Origin: a virus
Taxonomy: Duplodnaviria; Heunggongvirae; Uroviricota; Caudoviricetes
IMG/VR virus record: IMGVR_UViG_2671180724_000008
DNA: 64,000 nucleotides
Reading direction: 5' to 3' (one strand)
Shown: one piece after another, positions 11,961 through 62,148 of the stretch
Layout: each line of letters opens with the position of its first letter
Numbering within the stretch: the first letter of the stretch is position 1
Made by a program: the position numbers and the translations under genes
Notes under the pieces: model-generated
Database searches by the model: none
Told to the model about the DNA's origin: nothing
The model's input: only the letters and a program-made list of their open reading frames with translations

Positions 11961-12137
11961 CAGAAGAGGAGTTTTCTAACATAAAATTTGCATATTATTA
12001 GAGCACAAGGTAGATTTGGCACATGGATGTCAAGTAAATCATCCCTTGCATTAATGCTGCGACGCATACTCGTAGCCTCTAAACCCTGACAAGGGTCGCC
12101 GCTATGACATTAAGTTAATACCGGCTAAGGTGGACAC

Positions 12138-12521
12138 ATGCTGAACGAAAAACGTTCTATACAAACAATTCGCGATTGCACGAGTGTTATCGCAACTCAT
12201 GTGCTGAATAAGCGCAAACTTGAGGTGCGTAAACTTAACAACGATGCGACTGCGCCAAAAGACACTCGCTTCATCGTAACTTTCAAAGACGATGTTGAGA
12301 ATGCTGGTGCCAGTGTAAAACCGTTGGCTGAAGCGATTTTCCTGAACGATCGTGTTCGTTTCATTGTGAAGCCAGCAAAACAATACCCTGAATTAGCACG
12401 GTTTAGTGACCAATTCTCTGAAATTATTGAGAGTGCAATTCGCCGCTTTCTTAATACTCATGGTAGCATTGTCAGCAATACAACTGCTGATGGTACTGCT
12501 CTAAGATGGCACCTACACTAG
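12138..12521 (+). CDS. hypothetical protein
   Basis: 127-aa ORF with RBS-like aaggtgg upstream. Confidence 0.4.
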   Translation: MLNEKRSIQTIRDCTSVIATHVLNKRKLEVRKLNNDATAPKDTRFIVTFKDDVENAGASVKPLAEAIFLNDRVRFIVKPAKQYPELARFSDQFSEIIESAIRRFLNTHGSIVSNTTADGTALRWHLH

Positions 12522-13258
12522 AACGCACATACTCTAAAAATCTTTATGAGTTTCCTCACCGTGGGGAAACTCGCGTTTCACGTTTTGGCTACCTCATCAA
12601 CGAAGCATCGCTTTTCAAAATATCTGAAATAACCATTATCGAGCCTGATGATGATATCTGTCTGTATATCCTGATGGAGAAAGTTGGAGCACGAGATCAG
12701 GGTGAACTGATGGACTTCATTCTGGACAGAGGCGAAGATGGAATGTCTGATTCGGACATTATTCAAGCAATTCTGCGTTCCGACATGCTCGATCAGAGCA
12801 GAAACACGATAGCAGGCAGAATTGCATTGCGTGAATACACATTCATCGAGGATGGGGTAGAGATTGACTGCTATCAGATTGCAGGTGTTGAAACAGAAAG
12901 AGCAATAAGGCAAAGGGGACTGTGCAACCTCACGTATCGCTTCCTCCTTCATTGGTACGAACATCTTGTCTGTGATTACAATCAGACCATTCCTGGCGCA
13001 AAAATCTGGGCCGGTCCATTAATGCGAACAGGTGATGTAAGAATTTACAACGCAAAAACTGAGACGTTCGAGGATGTGTTAGGCGAATATGGGATGGGAA
13101 AAGAAACCGGCTTTTTGCCGTGGAACAGAGGATTGTTACTTGATCCAGAATTAAGCTCTTGGTTTCCAAATAAGGTGCAAGTTAACGTTGAGAAATTTAT
13201 CGTACTTATCATCTCCCGCAAAACAAGAACCCCAGTTGGTTTATATCTAAAAGATTAA
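12506..13258 (+). CDS. hypothetical protein
   Basis: 250-aa ORF overlapping the preceding stop; followed by a canonical terminator. Confidence 0.45.
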   Translation: MAPTLERTYSKNLYEFPHRGETRVSRFGYLINEASLFKISEITIIEPDDDICLYILMEKVGARDQGELMDFILDRGEDGMSDSDIIQAILRSDMLDQSRNTIAGRIALREYTFIEDGVEIDCYQIAGVETERAIRQRGLCNLTYRFLLHWYEHLVCDYNQTIPGAKIWAGPLMRTGDVRIYNAKTETFEDVLGEYGMGKETGFLPWNRGLLLDPELSSWFPNKVQVNVEKFIVLIISRKTRTPVGLYLKD

Positions 13259-13263
13259 CAATT

Positions 13264-13286
13264 AGGCGACTTCTGTCGCCTTTTTT
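13264..13286 (+). terminator. rho-independent terminator
   Basis: aggcgac-ttct-gtcgcc hairpin followed by tttttt. Confidence 0.7.
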
Positions 13287-13434
13287 GTTAACAGCCATTG
13301 ATTCTCGCCTAAAAATTCTAAGGCAGCACCTACCATTTAACCTTTACACAGCAGCCGTAGGCATTTAGGCTATATCACATATAAGAAAACAAGTTGTTTC
13401 AGACAATAATAATAGACGCAAAGGGAACTCTCCA

Positions 13435-14103
13435 ATGACCAAGATCTTTGTGGTTGGCGGCACAAAGGGCGGGCCTGGCAAATCCACTGTTGCCCAGCAA
13501 ATTGCCGTTTGCCTGAAAGTCAAAAAGAAGAAGAAGGTTTATATCACTGATATAGATATTCAGCGCACGACAACAAGCTGGTGTGAAGACCGTCGACAGA
13601 ACGAAGACCTTGAGCTGATTCCTTTTGCCTACGTTCAGGATGACATCATTAAGCACCTAAAATCGCTTCAGGGTAGAGCTGAGTTTGTAGTGGTAGATGC
13701 TGGTGGCTTTGACTCCGAAATTCAGCGACAAGCGATGCTGATGGCCGACGTTATCATTATCCCGCTGCGTCCTAAGCGTCGTGATTTGAAATCTCTGCGT
13801 GACATCGATCCTATTATCGACAATGTTCGTAATGTAAACGATAAAGTGAAGGTCCGCGCGGTCATGAACCAGTGCCCGGCTTTGCCATCACAAGTGTCTC
13901 GCATTCTGGCGGCTAAAGAGATTGTCGAGACGTTTGGCATCGAGTCTGCGCCAGTCAATCTATATAACCGCAACGTCTACGATGATGCGGAAGAGTCTGG
14001 TCGTTCTATCTTCGAAATGACCGGTAGCGAGCGCGACAAAAAGGCTGAAGCCGAGTTTGAAGAATTTGTAGATTATCTGTTGAGTCTGGAGGAAGAAGAA
14101 TAA
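13435..14103 (+). CDS. parA: ParA-family partition ATPase
   Basis: 222-aa protein with deviant Walker A GGTKGGPGKST near the N-terminus. Small size is typical of type Ib ParA. Confidence 0.8.
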   Translation: MTKIFVVGGTKGGPGKSTVAQQIAVCLKVKKKKKVYITDIDIQRTTTSWCEDRRQNEDLELIPFAYVQDDIIKHLKSLQGRAEFVVVDAGGFDSEIQRQAMLMADVIIIPLRPKRRDLKSLRDIDPIIDNVRNVNDKVKVRAVMNQCPALPSQVSRILAAKEIVETFGIESAPVNLYNRNVYDDAEESGRSIFEMTGSERDKKAEAEFEEFVDYLLSLEEEE

Positions 14104-14462
14104 TGTCCATGAAAATGGGTGACCTAGCAAAGCGCAAAGAGCCTGATGCACCGGCTAAGAACACAACTCCTTTGCGCCAACCAGTCAGACCACAGGGACG
14201 CCCGACTCGTGGCAAAGAGAAAATTAAGAGCCGCACGATGTCACTGGAGGACGAATACTTCGAACTGCTGGAGATGATGAAGTTCATCCCTCGTTTCGAG
14301 AAATTCACCCGTTCAGACGTGATTCGCGCAGCCATTTTCCATCTGGCAGAGAAGTCACCGCAGGAAATCGAGGACATCGTGAAACTTAACGAGGCGATCA
14401 CAGCTGCCGATGTCACGATGCGTACCGATGAAATCAAACGAGAGTTGATGAAAAAAGGTTAA
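14103..14462 (+). CDS. small ParB/ParG-like centromere-binding protein (putative)
   Basis: 119-aa ORF translationally coupled to parA (ATGA overlap). Basic disordered N-terminus and a C-terminal helical region compatible with a ribbon-helix-helix fold. Confidence 0.45.
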   Translation: MSMKMGDLAKRKEPDAPAKNTTPLRQPVRPQGRPTRGKEKIKSRTMSLEDEYFELLEMMKFIPRFEKFTRSDVIRAAIFHLAEKSPQEIEDIVKLNEAITAADVTMRTDEIKRELMKKG

Positions 14463-14499
14463 AAATCATGCATTGGCGCAATGTACGCGCCAATGCATG
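14448..14499 (-). terminator. terminator hairpin between convergent genes
   Basis: 13-bp perfect inverted repeat catgcattggcgc / gcgccaatgcatg with a 7-nt loop. A T-rich run follows on the minus strand (plus-strand gaaaaaaggttaaaaat). Confidence 0.6.
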
Positions 14500-14514
14500 A
14501 CTACAGTGTCAGCT

Positions 14515-15282
14515 TTATGCCGCGCTAACACTATGTTCAGTCCTAACCACCCCAACCTTCACAAAAGGGCTACCGTAGCTTGGTGGCTTCTTGATTAATT
14601 TGCCTACATACAGTTTTCTAATATGCTCATCGGCTATTCTGCCAACAAATTCATAACGTTTTGTGTCGGGGCCAAGAGCTATATCCCTTGTAAAGTACTG
14701 CTGAGAACCGGCTTTGACCCAGCATTCAATCCGATAAACTTCCATTATCAGCCCACCATATGTAGCGTAGGCATATTTGAGATTCTCGTCTCTTGGAACC
14801 TTTGCCCATACGCCACGCGTAGCTTCATATAATGCCAGAGCGGACATTCCTGACTTGTAGGTGCTGTTTAGCAGGAAGGCAAGACCGGCGTGCTCAGGAG
14901 CAATTTCAGTTTCCTCTTGCAGCACTAAGTGATGGTAGGCGTCCAGTGATATTCTGCCCATCATGGAACCACTTCCTCGTACCTTATTCGTAAGCTCTCC
15001 GACCCCCATAAGGTCGATGCATGTCGCCTCAACAAGTTTGGCTGTGGTTTCATCCATACCATGACGAAGTATATCTATGCCTAATTTTTTATTAGCCAAA
15101 AGTTCTTTGATCCGCATGGATTTGGGAGAGTCATCGGGATACTTGATGTGATCGAGACAACGAGTCGATTTGCCTTTTCCTATGTAAAACGGTCTTTTCA
15201 TCTTGTCTTCTGTATCATAGAGACAGTAAACATAGTATTTAGCCTTATCCAATGATCTCGCGTATACCGATAAATCGTCCAT
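14515..15282 (-). CDS. GIY-YIG family nuclease with uncharacterised C-terminal domain
   Basis: 255-aa minus-strand ORF. N-terminal YVYCLYD...PFYIGKGK..R..H matches the GIY-YIG catalytic pattern. It is the only minus-strand gene in a plus-strand block. Confidence 0.55.
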   Translation of the reverse strand: MDDLSVYARSLDKAKYYVYCLYDTEDKMKRPFYIGKGKSTRCLDHIKYPDDSPKSMRIKELLANKKLGIDILRHGMDETTAKLVEATCIDLMGVGELTNKVRGSGSMMGRISLDAYHHLVLQEETEIAPEHAGLAFLLNSTYKSGMSALALYEATRGVWAKVPRDENLKYAYATYGGLIMEVYRIECWVKAGSQQYFTRDIALGPDTKRYEFVGRIADEHIRKLYVGKLIKKPPSYGSPFVKVGVVRTEHSVSAA

Positions 15283-15392
15283 TATTGCATCTCTTAGCTA
15301 CTGACTAATGCGTTCTATTTTACACATAAGTTTTTAATCAATTTAACAGGCTCAAAGTGTAGAGCTTCTGGGCGTCTAAGACGACAAGTTAT

Positions 15393-15455
15393 GCCTGCTT
15401 CCGTATATATAAATAATAAGTAACTTATTAAATATATACAGAAGCAGGTCTTTTA
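15393..15455. repeat. conserved hairpin element, copy A (cctgcttc / gaagcagg stem around an AT-rich loop)
   Basis: 8-bp stem enclosing a roughly 39-nt AT-rich loop, followed by a T-run. A near-identical element recurs at 62088..62148. Confidence 0.5.
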
Positions 15456-15555
15456 AAAGACACCACCAGAACAACTCCCTTCCGTTTCCACTTCCAAAAA
15501 CTGCCACCAGTCGCTATCATCCGCCCATTGTGATAAGTAAGTAACTACCTACCAG

Positions 15556-16305
15556 GTGAGCCACATGAGCCAAATCTTTTTCGACACCATCGACAACGAC
15601 CAGTACGACTTCATGACAGAGTGGAATACCGCTGTTATGGATAAGTGGGTTGCTGAAAACATTGGTTTGTCGCGTTGCAAAGACGAGGCTGAACTCTTCG
15701 ATACGAAGTGGTTTGATTACCGCGACATGCATCCTCTTATGGCCACCTGTCTGTTTACAGAGGCATACAAACGTCAGTACTCAAATATCATGCTGACGCA
15801 CGGTCGAGAACACTTTGAAACAGCTCCGTTCACCACCGGGTTAAAACGCCTGCCTTATCAGGAGTTGTCGACTGCCAATAAAACGTCGCTATGGAAAGCA
15901 CGCCAGTTTGCTGACCGCTATTGCTGCTCATACGACTACTTTATTTCCACCGTTCTTTCCGCAGCTGCACGACGACTGTGGGACAAGCTGCCGCGTCCGC
16001 AGCATTTGTGGCAGCCAGAACTGATTGAGATATTCGAAGATAAATTAGCCAGACGCGCAACAACCCGTCTGGATGACTCTCTGGTTAGCTTTAAGCATAT
16101 GGGAGACATGCAGTTCAACCCGATTCAGGAAAGCTATTTTGAGTGGATTCTGGAGCGTTTACGCGCCATCCCCCGCAGCAAGCGCATACGCGCAATTTTC
16201 TCCGCTATCTGGCTAATGGAAATCGTTCCAGAGCGCCTTATTTCCGCCCACTTTCCAGAAGAACTGGAAGAAGCACGGCGGTTTATTGATCCCCTATCTA
16301 ATTAA
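15556..16305 (+). CDS. hypothetical protein (upstream of replicative helicase)
   Basis: 249-aa ORF, no recognisable motif. Any helicase-loader role is speculation from position only. Confidence 0.45.
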   Translation: MSHMSQIFFDTIDNDQYDFMTEWNTAVMDKWVAENIGLSRCKDEAELFDTKWFDYRDMHPLMATCLFTEAYKRQYSNIMLTHGREHFETAPFTTGLKRLPYQELSTANKTSLWKARQFADRYCCSYDYFISTVLSAAARRLWDKLPRPQHLWQPELIEIFEDKLARRATTRLDDSLVSFKHMGDMQFNPIQESYFEWILERLRAIPRSKRIRAIFSAIWLMEIVPERLISAHFPEELEEARRFIDPLSN

Positions 16306-24453: not shown

Positions 24454-25788
24454 TCATGCCAAATTATCCAGATTTCTTTTCTTTTTTTCAATTATATTTC
24501 TCGCGCCAGAAAAAATTTTACTCAAAATAATTGATTTGCTTGCTCTATTATTAAGATGTAACAACGCGCTATAAAATACATAGTTATCTATTTTACTATT
24601 TAAAGTATTCCCAAGCTTCCCGTTATATGTGCTATTAATAGTATTAAAATATACATGTTCAGGACCTATATTACAAATACCCCTATCAACTCGCTTTAAA
24701 TAATGTTTAACTAAAGAAATAGCATCTTCCTTATCATTAATAACATAAAGTCCTGAGCGTTTACCTAGCTTGCTGTCCGAGAATAATTTATAACCAACAA
24801 GTTCATTTAACGTATTATCCACTTTTGTCAACTCTTTGTTGGCAATCTCCAAATAATACTCAATCTCTTTCTCCATATTACTTATTAAAGAGTTAAATTC
24901 TGCTCGTAACAAATCACCACCAGGTGATTTATAACTCCATAAAATTGAATTGGTAATACGTACTACGTCAGATACTTCTGGTTTCTCTGAATAGTTTTTG
25001 TATCTAGTGCAAATAATGCTGTGCTTTATATATTCTCTAACTAATGATCGATAATCCCTTTCGAAAAGGTTTTTGACATCTAGTCTTCCATTGCTTGTTG
25101 TTATTAAGGTGGTGTTTAAAACTGGGTCGCCTTCAAAAAAATTATATTTATTTAGTAATCGTTTTAGCTTGTGTGAATTATGTGATGTTTCGCCATAATA
25201 ATTTATCCCAAAAATAGCAATTATTAGCATAACATCAGGAGTGATGAAATGTCGTAATTGCTCGGCATAAACTTTTTTATCTTCGATTTTCGAAGATGGA
25301 GAGTAAAAACCTTTGTCTATATATTCTAATATTGAAACAATATTACTAACATAACGTATAAAAACTTGATTCATTACAACGGAATCATAAACCTGATGCA
25401 AATAATCTACTCTCAAGTTGTTTTTTATTTTTTCCCCTGTACTAGATGATAACTCTTCTTTTACCTGCCCAAGTAGCTTTTCGTGGTGCTCCAGCAATGT
25501 TTTAAACCATTGTTCAAATGATGATTTTCTTGCCTCAGTTAATGAATCTGATGTTATCTGGACAGCTTTCATAGCTGCTTTCGCACTTTTCTTTGCTTCA
25601 TAAGCGTTCCATGCTGAAGCACAAAAAGCTGCCGCCGTGATGCAACTGGTAAAAATAGAAATCCTATCTGCAACATTCAAGCTCCAGAACCAATCAGACG
25701 ATGAAATCAAAACCACAGATATTACGGGAACAATGAAAATCAAAACAGGCATGTATGTACTCGCTCTAATAGTTATTAGTCGAGGCAA
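24454..25788 (-). CDS. low-GC membrane protein of unknown function (candidate accessory / defence or exclusion gene)
   Basis: 444-aa minus-strand ORF in a markedly AT-rich segment. Two predicted N-terminal TM helices, then a largely helical soluble region with no nucleotide-binding or nuclease motif recognisable by eye. Own terminator at 24414..24436. Confidence 0.5.
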   Translation of the reverse strand: MPRLITIRASTYMPVLIFIVPVISVVLISSSDWFWSLNVADRISIFTSCITAAAFCASAWNAYEAKKSAKAAMKAVQITSDSLTEARKSSFEQWFKTLLEHHEKLLGQVKEELSSSTGEKIKNNLRVDYLHQVYDSVVMNQVFIRYVSNIVSILEYIDKGFYSPSSKIEDKKVYAEQLRHFITPDVMLIIAIFGINYYGETSHNSHKLKRLLNKYNFFEGDPVLNTTLITTSNGRLDVKNLFERDYRSLVREYIKHSIICTRYKNYSEKPEVSDVVRITNSILWSYKSPGGDLLRAEFNSLISNMEKEIEYYLEIANKELTKVDNTLNELVGYKLFSDSKLGKRSGLYVINDKEDAISLVKHYLKRVDRGICNIGPEHVYFNTINSTYNGKLGNTLNSKIDNYVFYSALLHLNNRASKSIILSKIFSGARNIIEKKKRNLDNLA

Positions 25789-61470: not shown

Positions 61471-62064
61471 ATGATTGCAGCCGAAAAAATCAAACAGCGA
61501 AAGCGCGACAACTCTCTTCGTGACCTCTGGAGAACACCTGATTGGCTGTTTTCTGCCATTCAACGTTATCTTGGAGTGACATTTGATGTTGACGTTGCCT
61601 GCAACAAGGACAATGCAAAGCTGCCTAATTTCATAGGCATTGAGCGTGATGCTTTGAAATCTGAATGGGGACAGCCAGGTACAATTGCCTTCCTCAATCC
61701 ACCCTACTCCAAAATCTCCCCCTGGATTGATGCGGCTATACGTGAGCAGGCTCGCGGAGTTACAACAGTGATGCTAATTCCTCAATCCCTCGATACAAAG
61801 TGGTATGAGCGTGCAACAGAGTATGCGAATGAGACGATTATTCTGTCTGGTGGCCGCGTAGCGTTTGTCGAGCCTGACGTCAATTTGGGTCAGGTAGAAG
61901 TAAACATCAACCCCGGTGGCAGTATGCTCGTTGTTTTTCGAGGATTCTGTCAGGACGCTGGGCACTCTATAAGCAAGATCCCTTTGGACGTCATGAAAAG
62001 TCTGGGAGGGTATGATCCTGCGAATGTGGTCAGGAAAAAAAGACCATCAAAGAAGGCTGCTTAG
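61471..62064 (+). CDS. phage-type DNA N6-adenine methyltransferase (Dam-like)
   Basis: 197-aa ORF with catalytic NPPY motif (AFLNPPYS); small size is typical of the phage Dam family. Confidence 0.6.
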   Translation: MIAAEKIKQRKRDNSLRDLWRTPDWLFSAIQRYLGVTFDVDVACNKDNAKLPNFIGIERDALKSEWGQPGTIAFLNPPYSKISPWIDAAIREQARGVTTVMLIPQSLDTKWYERATEYANETIILSGGRVAFVEPDVNLGQVEVNINPGGSMLVVFRGFCQDAGHSISKIPLDVMKSLGGYDPANVVRKKRPSKKAA

Positions 62065-62087: not shown

Positions 62088-62148
62088 CCTGCTTCTGTAA
62101 ATAAATAACTACATATTAATTATTAATATACGGAAGCAGGCTGTTTTG
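62088..62148. repeat. conserved hairpin element, copy B (cctgcttc / gaagcagg stem around an AT-rich loop)
   Basis: Same 8-bp stem and similar AT-rich loop (gtaaataaataa...) as copy A at 15393..15455, followed by ctgttttg. Confidence 0.5.

What the first reader, a model, noticed from the sequence alone, without database searches (positions are those of the whole stretch)
14448..15455. Antisense GIY-YIG nuclease gene inserted between partition and replication modules
A 255-aa protein with a clear GIY-YIG catalytic signature (YVYCLYD...FYIGKGK) and an uncharacterised C-terminal domain is the only minus-strand gene in a long plus-strand block. It has its own terminator (14448..14499) and sits beside a repeated hairpin element (15393..15455). 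That layout is typical of free-standing homing endonucleases, but a nuclease of this type could instead be a defence or anti-defence effector.
Basis: partly seen in the sequence, partly recalled or inferred. Interest (0 to 1): 0.55.

Follow-up and report, generated by a model that had tools for sequence, protein, structure and literature searches.

The report
Phage-plasmid carries a modified-DNA restriction nuclease
The antisense GIY-YIG gene is not a homing endonuclease but a divergent member of the recently solved CMoRE/PD-T4-3 family, nucleases that destroy the hydroxymethyl-cytosine DNA of T4-like phages, and it sits as swappable cargo in a slot of an SSU5-type phage-plasmid where relatives carry other defence-type genes.

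Summary
A 255-aa ORF (14515..15282, minus strand) with a GIY-YIG signature lies between the partition genes and the replication genes of an Escherichia SSU5/pHCM2-type phage-plasmid. It has its own minus-strand terminator and sits next to a conserved hairpin.

One difference is that the acidic autoinhibitory loop is shortened in the whole clade.

The gene is a 933-bp cassette (14461..15393) with sharp borders. Close relatives carry other cargo at the same borders: DUF2971/PDC-S31, KAP-NTPase/PDC-S49 and several unknowns. I never saw an empty site. The cassette is 97–100% identical in a backbone that is otherwise about 80–88% identical.

Verdict: a new, divergent member of a known defence family in a cargo-exchange slot. 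Modest interest.

The parts
14461..15393 (.). Exchangeable cargo cassette (933 bp): terminator, nuclease gene and its upstream control region
   Evidence: Homology to Cyrano, CMS-2020a(SCU-175) and SSU5 stops at 14460 and resumes at 15384-15394. The cassette is found in 136 PLSDB plasmids and in 107 of 5426 complete E. coli genomes, always on plasmids. It is 97-100% identical in L008, whose backbone is about 80-88% identical.
14515..15282 (-). CDS, 255 aa: CMoRE/PD-T4-3-family modification-dependent (type IV) restriction endonuclease
   Evidence: ORF; PADLOC PD-T4-3 E 1.6e-23, aa 11-231 against profile positions 11-238 of 256; 9u7u_A E 1.9e-15, aa 12-230; BLASTP 32% identity over 237 aligned positions; Foldseek top four hits are the PD-T4-3 crystal structures, E 2e-11.
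14953..15282 (-). [quoted passage not shown]
14548..14907 (-). C-terminal modification-sensing domain (about aa 126-245)
14448..14500 (-). Intrinsic terminator of the nuclease gene (stem 14466-14500, U-tract 14448-14465)
   Evidence: -28.5 kcal/mol, z -6.4, followed by UUUUUAACCUUUUUU. Not called by the consensus scan.
15283..15393 (-). Upstream region of the nuclease gene within the cassette. It holds a Shine-Dalgarno-like AAGAG and a weak sigma-70-like TTAAAT-18 nt-TAAAAT (15346..15317). The promoter is inferred only.
   Evidence: Read directly. The promoter scan found no site at its threshold.
15394..15455 (+). Conserved backbone hairpin followed by UCUUUU. It is probably the plus-strand intrinsic terminator of the parA-parG(-cargo) unit, and it marks the right border of the cargo slot.
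   Evidence: It is conserved in 10 relatives including SSU5 and a Klebsiella phage-plasmid. The C-to-U changes keep G-U pairing.
14103..14462 (+). 119-aa ParA-partner gene (ribbon-helix-helix-like by eye; phrog_5111). Its 3' half is the conserved left border of the slot.
   Evidence: Positions 14211-14410 are 92-100% identical in the Escherichia and SSU5 relatives (L001, L002, L007, L008) and 86-92% in the Klebsiella one (L012), regardless of cargo.
13435..14103 (+). ParA-type partition ATPase (context)
   Evidence: Annotated ParA or AAA family ATPase in the relatives.
62088..62140 (+). Second copy of the backbone hairpin, downstream of a Dam-type methyltransferase gene

Best explanation
The gene encodes a single-protein, modification-dependent (type IV) restriction endonuclease of the CMoRE/PD-T4-3 family. 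The SSU5-type phage-plasmid carries it as accessory defence cargo.

Inferred mechanism, by homology to CMoRE (Liu et al. 2026, PMC12923530):
- The gene is transcribed from its own promoter, antisense to the partition operon, while the element is maintained as a plasmid.
- The C-terminal domain recognises hypermodified bases in incoming phage DNA. The most likely targets are 5-hydroxymethyl- and glucosyl-hydroxymethyl-cytosine of T-even phages.
- The N-terminal GIYxY-YIG domain, probably working as an oligomer, cuts that DNA.
- Ordinary, Dam-methylated host and phage-plasmid DNA is spared.
- This is direct immunity rather than abortive infection, and it protects the host and hence the resident element.

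The gene occupies a cargo slot bounded by the conserved 3' half of the parG-like gene and a conserved terminator hairpin. Unrelated cargo cassettes appear to be swapped there, probably by homologous recombination in those conserved borders.

Shown here: family membership at sequence and fold level for both domains; conservation of the catalytic residues; the cassette borders; the alternative cargos; exchange between diverged backbones.

Inferred, not shown: expression, substrate specificity, oligomeric state, the protective phenotype, and the recombination mechanism.
For: (1) PADLOC PD-T4-3 match at E 1.6e-23 covering 89% of the profile.
(2) phmmer against the PDB finds only CMoRE chains (E 1.9e-15, aa 12-230). 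The clade profile gives E 5.7e-23. BLASTP identity is 32%.
(4) Y17, Y19, Y33, R41, E85 and N99 are invariant in 24 clade members.
(5) The sensor domain recurs fused to McrB-like AAA_5 with SRA, and to HEPN. This is the combinatorial pattern of modified-DNA readers in type IV restriction.
(6) Two of the alternative occupants of the same slot, DUF2971 and KAP NTPase, match PADLOC candidate defence models PDC-S31 and PDC-S49.
(7) The cassette is an identity island in a diverged backbone and occurs only on plasmids in E. coli.
(8) Published experiments on family members: T-even-specific, direct defence; cleavage of 5hmC/5ghmC DNA but not C or 5mC DNA; catalytic tyrosines essential (PMC12923530). 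A 48%-identical Capnocytophaga homologue behaves likewise (PMC12366544). A native E. coli copy is active (10.1101/2024.12.20.629700).
(9) A DefenseFinder screen already reports PD-T4-3 in clade J SSU5-type phage-plasmids of E. coli and Shigella (10.1101/2025.09.12.675607).
(10) The element encodes a Dam-type methyltransferase. That is compatible with an enzyme that ignores simple methylation.
Against: Identity to the characterised enzymes is only about 32%, and no member of this clade has been tested.

The acidic lid loop that prevents self-cleavage in CMoRE (four consecutive acidic residues) is 5-6 residues shorter here and keeps only D50 and D51. The whole clade has the short loop. Regulation or substrate discrimination may therefore differ.

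One dimer-interface residue, L96 in CMoRE, is an invariant Cys in this clade.

The consensus scan found no promoter.

Other slot occupants of unknown function gave no defence-model hit, so 'defence slot' is not shown for all cargos.

Family members show plasticity: PD-T4-3Capno also cuts Mu DNA. The exact target here is therefore uncertain.
Confidence: 0.8

Rival explanations
1. Same enzyme family and defence role, but a different specificity or control. The short-loop clade would recognise another hypermodified base (for example arabinosyl-hmC, carbamoylmethyl-adenine or other glycosylated bases), or would lack the acidic-lid autoinhibition and rely on expression level or another safeguard.
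For: The acidic loop is shortened throughout the clade. Identity to tested enzymes is 32%. Substrate plasticity in the family is documented (PMC12366544; PMC12923530 discussion).
Confidence: 0.2
2. Free-standing GIY-YIG homing endonuclease (Seg or I-TevI-like). It would cut the parG-rep junction of relatives that lack it and spread by repair-mediated copying.
Against: The C-terminal domain is the CMoRE modification sensor. No NUMOD, HTH or zinc-finger DNA-binding module was found. No empty site was seen; other cargos share the same borders. Flank conservation is the same in non-carriers. Chromosomal clade members are solitary genes among housekeeping genes, not inside conserved phage modules.
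Confidence: 0.04
3. Housekeeping structure-specific or repair nuclease (LEM-3/SLX1/UvrC-like) that serves phage-plasmid replication or recombination.
For: The only Pfam hit is LEM-3_GIY-YIG, RefSeq names the protein accordingly, and it lies next to the replication genes.
Against: It is not conserved in the element family. About half of the Escherichia and Shigella records and, among the relatives inspected here, SSU5, pHCM2 and a Klebsiella phage-plasmid lack it and carry unrelated genes instead. It is homologous over its full length to a defence enzyme.
Confidence: 0.03
4. Offensive or anti-defence nuclease, in the manner of T4 EndoII. It would degrade host or competitor DNA during lytic growth.
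Against: The gene has its own transcription unit, antisense to the maintenance genes of a temperate element. Every characterised relative spares unmodified DNA. No anti-defence model or literature supports this reading.
Confidence: 0.03

Closest known systems
CMoRE / PD-T4-3 (E. coli APEC O1 and O157:H7; PDB 9U7U, 9U7Z, 9U75, 9U8D; Liu et al., Nat Commun 2026, PMC12923530; first found in ECOR68 by functional selection)
   Different: Only about 32% identical. The alpha2-alpha3 acidic lid is shortened from a DDDE-containing loop to 'YPDDSP'. Interface residue L96 is a Cys. It is located in a phage-plasmid cargo slot. It has not been tested experimentally.
PD-T4-3Capno (Capnocytophaga homologue; Rodriguez-Rodriguez et al. 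2025, PMC12366544)
   Same: A divergent family member that still gives modification-dependent defence. This shows the function is retained across large sequence distances.
   Different: It also cuts Mu DNA carrying carbamoylmethyl-adenine. It comes from a different phylum. Its relationship to the window's clade was not determined.
Other type IV modification-dependent nucleases built from a reader plus a nuclease (PvuRts1I/AbaSI, MspJI, VcaM4I, McrBC, GmrSD)
   Different: Different nuclease folds (PD-(D/E)XK, HNH, DUF262/DUF1524) and different reader families. There is no sequence similarity.
Free-standing GIY-YIG homing endonucleases (I-TevI, T4 SegA-G)
   Same: The GIY-YIG catalytic fold and an intergenic, autonomously expressed gene in a phage genome.
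   Different: No sequence-specific DNA-binding C-terminal modules, no empty target alleles and no co-conversion signature.
Accessory defence loci of temperate phages and phage-plasmids (for example the P2 old/tin/fun locus and P4 hotspots, cited from my own knowledge; defence genes on P1 and SSU5 elements, 10.1101/2025.09.12.675607)
   Same: A fixed position between conserved backbone genes where unrelated cargo genes replace one another.
   Different: This particular slot (parG | hairpin | rep) in SSU5-type elements is, as far as my literature searches went, not described as a hotspot.

Membership tests
CMoRE / PD-T4-3 | Single-gene system with a two-domain protein of about 250 aa that matches the family profile over its full length | tested here: met
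   255 aa. PADLOC PDLC04031 E 1.6e-23, profile positions 11-238 of 256. PDB CMoRE chains are the only sequence hits, aa 12-230. The clade profile gives E 5.7e-23.
CMoRE / PD-T4-3 | GIYxY-YIG motif with a third tyrosine (Y17, Y19, Y31 in CMoRE) | tested here: met
   Y17-V-Y19 ... F-Y33-I-G, aligned to the CMoRE tyrosines. All three are invariant in 24 clade members.
CMoRE / PD-T4-3 | Catalytic Arg and Glu (and Asn) of the GIY-YIG active site | tested here: met
   R41, E85 and N99 align with the CMoRE residues and are invariant in the clade.
CMoRE / PD-T4-3 | Inserted, negatively charged alpha2-alpha3 lid loop with four consecutive acidic residues (autoinhibition) | tested here: not met
   The loop is 5-6 residues shorter and keeps only D50 and D51 ('YPDDSP' against 'GEVAAVDDDELL'). 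All 24 clade members have a short loop with one to three acidic residues. The paper says only 'most' family members have this loop, so it is not universal. Its absence marks a sub-clade and does not exclude the protein from the family.
CMoRE / PD-T4-3 | C-terminal modification-sensing domain of the CMoRE fold | tested here: met
   [not shown]
CMoRE / PD-T4-3 | Tetramer (dimer of dimers) needed for function; interface residues V92 and L96 and the beta1-beta2 loop | tested here: inconclusive
   V92 aligns with V84 (conserved), L96 aligns with C88 (an invariant Cys in the clade), and R80 aligns with R73. Oligomeric state cannot be assessed with these tools.
CMoRE / PD-T4-3 | Cleaves 5hmC/5ghmC DNA but not C or 5mC DNA; protects against T-even phages by direct immunity | not testable with these tools
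   Needs plaque assays and in vitro digests. Known only for relatives.
Free-standing GIY-YIG homing endonucleases (I-TevI/Seg type) | GIY-YIG catalytic domain | tested here: met
   [not shown]
Free-standing GIY-YIG homing endonucleases (I-TevI/Seg type) | C-terminal sequence-tolerant DNA-binding modules (NUMOD, HTH, zinc finger) | tested here: not met
   No such Pfam hit at E <= 1. The C-terminal domain is the CMoRE sensor.
Free-standing GIY-YIG homing endonucleases (I-TevI/Seg type) | Relatives without the gene carry an uninterrupted (empty) target site, and co-conversion tracts flank the insertion | tested here: not met
   All inspected relatives have other cargo between the same breakpoints. 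In the 60-row spread sample, every record in which both flanks aligned had a slot of roughly 820-2180 bp. The left-flank identity profile is the same in carriers and non-carriers.
Free-standing GIY-YIG homing endonucleases (I-TevI/Seg type) | Cleaves the cognate allele that lacks the endonuclease gene | not testable with these tools
   Requires an in vitro cleavage assay or crosses.
   Sensor-domain homologues (746 at E <= 1e-3) occur alone, in tandem, and fused to GIY-YIG, to McrB-like AAA_5 with or without SRA, to HEPN_Swt1 and to kinases.

The most novel reading that the evidence does not exclude
The interval between the parG-like gene and the conserved hairpin upstream of the replication genes is a dedicated, never-empty cargo-exchange hotspot of SSU5-family phage-plasmids across Escherichia, Shigella, Salmonella, Klebsiella, Enterobacter and Citrobacter. 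If so, two things follow. First, its uncharacterised occupants would be new anti-phage systems: the 352-aa phrog_22329 protein of Shigella sonnei-type and pHCM2-type elements, the 250+140-aa pair, the 225-aa phrog_1353 protein, and DUF2971 itself. Second, the short-loop CMoRE clade carried here would have a specificity or self-control mechanism different from the crystallised enzymes.
Probability: 0.4. Interest if true: 0.5.

Novelty: new member of a known kind. Interest (0 to 1): 0.3.

Why it matters
It replaces the 'hypothetical / LEM-3-like GIY-YIG' annotation carried by hundreds of E. coli phage-plasmids with a specific, testable function: restriction of hydroxymethyl-cytosine phages.

This implies that about 2% of complete E. 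coli genomes gain T-even resistance from a resident phage-plasmid. That matters for phage-therapy host-range prediction.

The shortened acidic lid offers a natural variant for testing the autoinhibition model proposed for CMoRE.

The slot architecture, with a conserved gene end on one side, a conserved terminator hairpin on the other, and interchangeable cargo between them, gives a simple handle for mining further defence candidates from this clinically common element family. That family includes pHCM2 of S. Typhi and the S. sonnei elements.

Tried and rejected
- NCBIfam gave no hit for the nuclease.
- The promoter/terminator consensus scan returned nothing in 14000-15700. The terminator was then established by direct folding. 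The promoter remains unverified.
- PADLOC, Pfam and PHROGs gave no informative hit for the alternative cargos of L005, L006 and L007, for pHCM2's second gene, or for the window ORFs 12138..12521 and 12506..13258. All fall in 'unknown function' PHROGs.
- I looked for a second copy of cassette sequence to explain 'places_in_record 2'. There is none in the window and none in PhiR41_1 1-50000. H140 is an IS26-truncated remnant. The second places remain unexplained.
- Literature searches for a described hotspot at this position, or for a phage-plasmid GIY-YIG study, found none. Only a one-line DefenseFinder mention of PD-T4-3 in SSU5 clade J turned up.
- The homing, repair and anti-defence readings were considered and rejected, as set out under the rival explanations.
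- Base composition does not mark the cassette as foreign: GC is 0.45-0.47 against 0.47-0.50 in the flanks. Only the intergenic regions are AT-rich.

Full report
**What is in the sequence**

The window holds an ATG-initiated ORF at 14515..15282 on the minus strand. It encodes 255 aa beginning MDDLSVYARSLDKAKYYVYCLYDTEDKMKRPFYIGKGK.

The gene is convergent with a 119-aa gene (14103..14462) that follows a ParA-type ATPase gene (13435..14103). Downstream on the plus strand lie a 249-aa gene, a DnaB-like helicase gene and a primase-like gene. Among ORFs of at least 130 aa, it is the only non-shadow minus-strand ORF between about 300 and 24400.

A perfect 14-bp inverted repeat lies at 14466-14500. 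On the minus strand it folds at -28.5 kcal/mol (z -6.4) and is followed by UUUUUAACCUUUUUU. This is a canonical intrinsic terminator for the gene, although the consensus scanner did not list it.

The hairpin at 15394-15448 is real (-26.2 kcal/mol, z -7.3). It has a second copy at 62088-62140.

**Which replicon this is**

The region is 98% identical to Escherichia phage PhiR41_1 and to CMS-2020a, and about 83% identical to Salmonella phage SSU5. It matches 704 PLSDB plasmids from Klebsiella, Escherichia, Enterobacter, Salmonella and Citrobacter, nearly all of them non-mobilizable. It is an SSU5/pHCM2-type phage-plasmid.

**What the protein is**

- Pfam recognises only a LEM-3-like GIY-YIG domain at aa 32-104. 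PHROGs places the protein in a family of unknown function.
- PADLOC matches the PD-T4-3 model over the full length, at E 1.6e-23.
- PD-T4-3 was characterised in 2026 as CMoRE (PMC12923530). It is a type IV restriction endonuclease that binds and cuts DNA containing 5hmC or 5ghmC, but not C or 5mC. It cuts with CN11/N9G geometry and gives direct, non-abortive immunity to T2, T4 and T6.
- In CMoRE, the N-terminal GIY-YIG domain has a third tyrosine ('GIYxY-YIG') and an acidic lid loop that prevents self-cleavage. The C-terminal domain binds 5hm-dCTP. The enzyme is a tetramer.

Against all PDB sequences, the window protein hits only the CMoRE chains (E 1.9e-15, aa 12-230 of 255). Identity is 32% over 237 aligned positions. 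A profile of 24 clade members raises the match to E 5.7e-23. The C-terminal 130 residues alone still find only CMoRE (E 3e-4).

Y17, Y19, Y33, R41, E85 and N99 align with the CMoRE catalytic residues and are invariant in the clade. Every family criterion I could test is met except one, described next.

**The one difference**

The acidic lid is 5-6 residues shorter here and keeps only D50 and D51. All 24 clade members share this short loop. The CMoRE paper notes that only 'most' family members have the acidic loop. I therefore treat this protein as a short-loop sub-clade of the family, not as an outsider. It does mean that self-control and discrimination may differ from the crystallised enzymes.

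A full HMMER scan of 1.84 billion representatives with the domain alone found 746 proteins at E ≤ 1e-3. The domain occurs alone, in tandem, and fused to different partners:

- GIY-YIG nucleases
- McrB-like AAA_5 modules, once together with an SRA domain
- a Swt1-like HEPN domain
- protein kinases

This combinatorial use is what is expected of a modified-nucleic-acid reader in type IV restriction systems.

**The locus is a cargo slot, not a homing site**

Homology to Cyrano, CMS-2020a(SCU-175) and SSU5 ends at 14460, two bases before the end of the 119-aa gene. It resumes at 15384-15394, the start of the hairpin. The cassette is therefore 14461..15393.

Between the same borders, other elements carry different cargo:

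| Element | Cargo in the slot |
|---|---|
| Cyrano; a Klebsiella element (annotation only); Enterobacter elements (annotation under the match only) | DUF2971 protein (PADLOC candidate PDC-S31, tested for Cyrano) |
| SSU5; Citrobacter elements (by slot size and annotation only) | Two small ORFs without a family match, plus DUF2971 |
| pHCM2 | DUF2971 plus a 351-aa protein |
| CMS-2020a(SCU-175) | 567-aa KAP-family P-loop NTPase (PDC-S49) |
| Other E. coli elements (a Shigella sonnei element has the same slot size as the 352-aa type) | A 352-aa protein, a 250+140-aa pair, or a 225-aa protein, all of unknown function |

In a 60-row sample spread over the whole hit list, every record in which both flanks aligned had an occupied slot of roughly 820-2180 bp. 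Some slots also held IS elements.

The GIY-YIG cassette is present in 136 of 704 matching plasmids. Of those, 134 are Escherichia, which is about half of the Escherichia and Shigella records. It is in 107 of 5426 complete E. coli genomes, always on plasmids.

In pYUXYEH3934-1 the backbone is only about 80-88% identical to the window, but the cassette is 97-100% identical. The cassette has therefore moved between diverged elements.

The left flank at 14211-14410 is 92-100% identical in the Escherichia and SSU5 relatives, and 86-92% in the Klebsiella one, whatever their cargo. That makes it a conserved recombination anchor and not a homing co-conversion tract.

The right-hand hairpin is conserved in ten relatives, including SSU5 and a Klebsiella element. 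Its C-to-U changes preserve G-U pairing, and it is followed by UCUUUU. I read it as the plus-strand terminator of the partition and cargo unit, doubling as the right anchor.

More distant clade members in Providencia, Salmonella, Shewanella and other genomes are solitary genes among housekeeping genes. This is typical of single-gene restriction systems.

**Most likely mechanism**

The gene is expressed from its own weak promoter in the plasmid-prophage state; the promoter is inferred and was not detected by the scan. The enzyme would recognise hypermodified cytosines in the DNA of an infecting T-even phage through its C-terminal domain and cut with its GIYxY-YIG domain. It would spare the Dam-methylated DNA of the host and of the element itself, which encodes a Dam-type methyltransferase at 61471..62064. 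This protects the host cell and so the resident element.

Family membership, catalytic competence at the sequence level, and the cassette's mobility are shown here. Specificity, oligomeric state, expression and phenotype are inferred from relatives that are 32-48% identical.

**Comparison with what is known, and novelty**

The family, its structure and its mechanism are published. A 2025 preprint already lists PD-T4-3 among DefenseFinder hits in clade J SSU5-type elements of E. coli and Shigella. This gene is therefore a new, divergent and untested member of a known kind.

What I did not find described:

- the short-lid sub-clade
- the precise slot architecture with its interchangeable cargos
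- the reader domain's fusion repertoire and its weak PUA-like affinity

Interest is modest for the gene itself. It would be somewhat higher if the slot proves to be a general defence hotspot whose unknown cargos are new systems.

Noticed in passing
window 12100..13330 (ORFs 12138..12521 and 12506..13258): There is a second variable region just upstream of parA. Most close relatives lose homology before 13328 or 12917. Cyrano carries a KacT-type toxin/antitoxin pair there, while the Klebsiella element and pHCM2 carry a minus-strand gene of about 185 aa. The window's two ORFs belong to PHROGs of unknown function and have no PADLOC or Pfam hit.
   Followed up: partly
window 62088..62140, and 61471..62064: The second copy of the CCTGCTTC...GAAGCAGG hairpin lies directly downstream of a Dam-type N6-adenine methyltransferase gene (Pfam PF05869, E 5e-38) and is followed by a U-rich stretch. 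The hairpin may be a family-specific terminator type that is reused in the backbone.
   Followed up: partly
[not shown]
   Followed up: partly
proteins P0144, P0197, P0217, P0220, P0262: The sensor domain is fused to protein kinases, to a Swt1-like HEPN domain, and to McrB-like AAA_5 modules, one of which also has an SRA domain. These may be undescribed modification-dependent systems with non-nuclease effectors.
   Followed up: partly
L018 2968..3732 (Serratia phage Moabite gp009) and related jumbo phages: Virulent jumbo phages of Serratia and Pectobacterium (Moabite, 2050HW, BUCT660, Yubaba and others) encode two-domain homologues that are 28-30% identical over 85-88% of the protein. They are annotated as GIY-YIG or homing endonucleases. 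They could be inter-phage weapons against phages with modified DNA.
   Followed up: no
L005 1196..2254 (-), L013 6500..7555 (-), L006 1187..2354 (+), L007 1171..1848 (-): Uncharacterised occupants of the same slot: a 352-aa phrog_22329 protein (also in pHCM2; a Shigella sonnei element has a slot of the same size), a 250+140-aa pair (phrog_22270/17322) and a 225-aa phrog_1353 protein. They have no Pfam hit and no significant PADLOC hit. They are candidates for new defence genes by position.
   Followed up: partly
PLSDB and RefSeq records; L019: Many records show a second short 'place' matching part of the cassette. I could not locate one in the window or in PhiR41_1 1-50000. One case, NZ_CP107722.1, is a 158-bp remnant of the cassette truncated by IS26.
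   Followed up: partly
window 14445..14514: The consensus terminator scan missed a textbook terminator: a 14-bp GC-rich stem, a 7-nt loop and a U-tract. A negative result from that scan should not be read as absence.
   Followed up: yes
window 24454..25788 (-): The next sizeable minus-strand ORF (444 aa) ends the long plus-strand block. I did not examine it.
   Followed up: no
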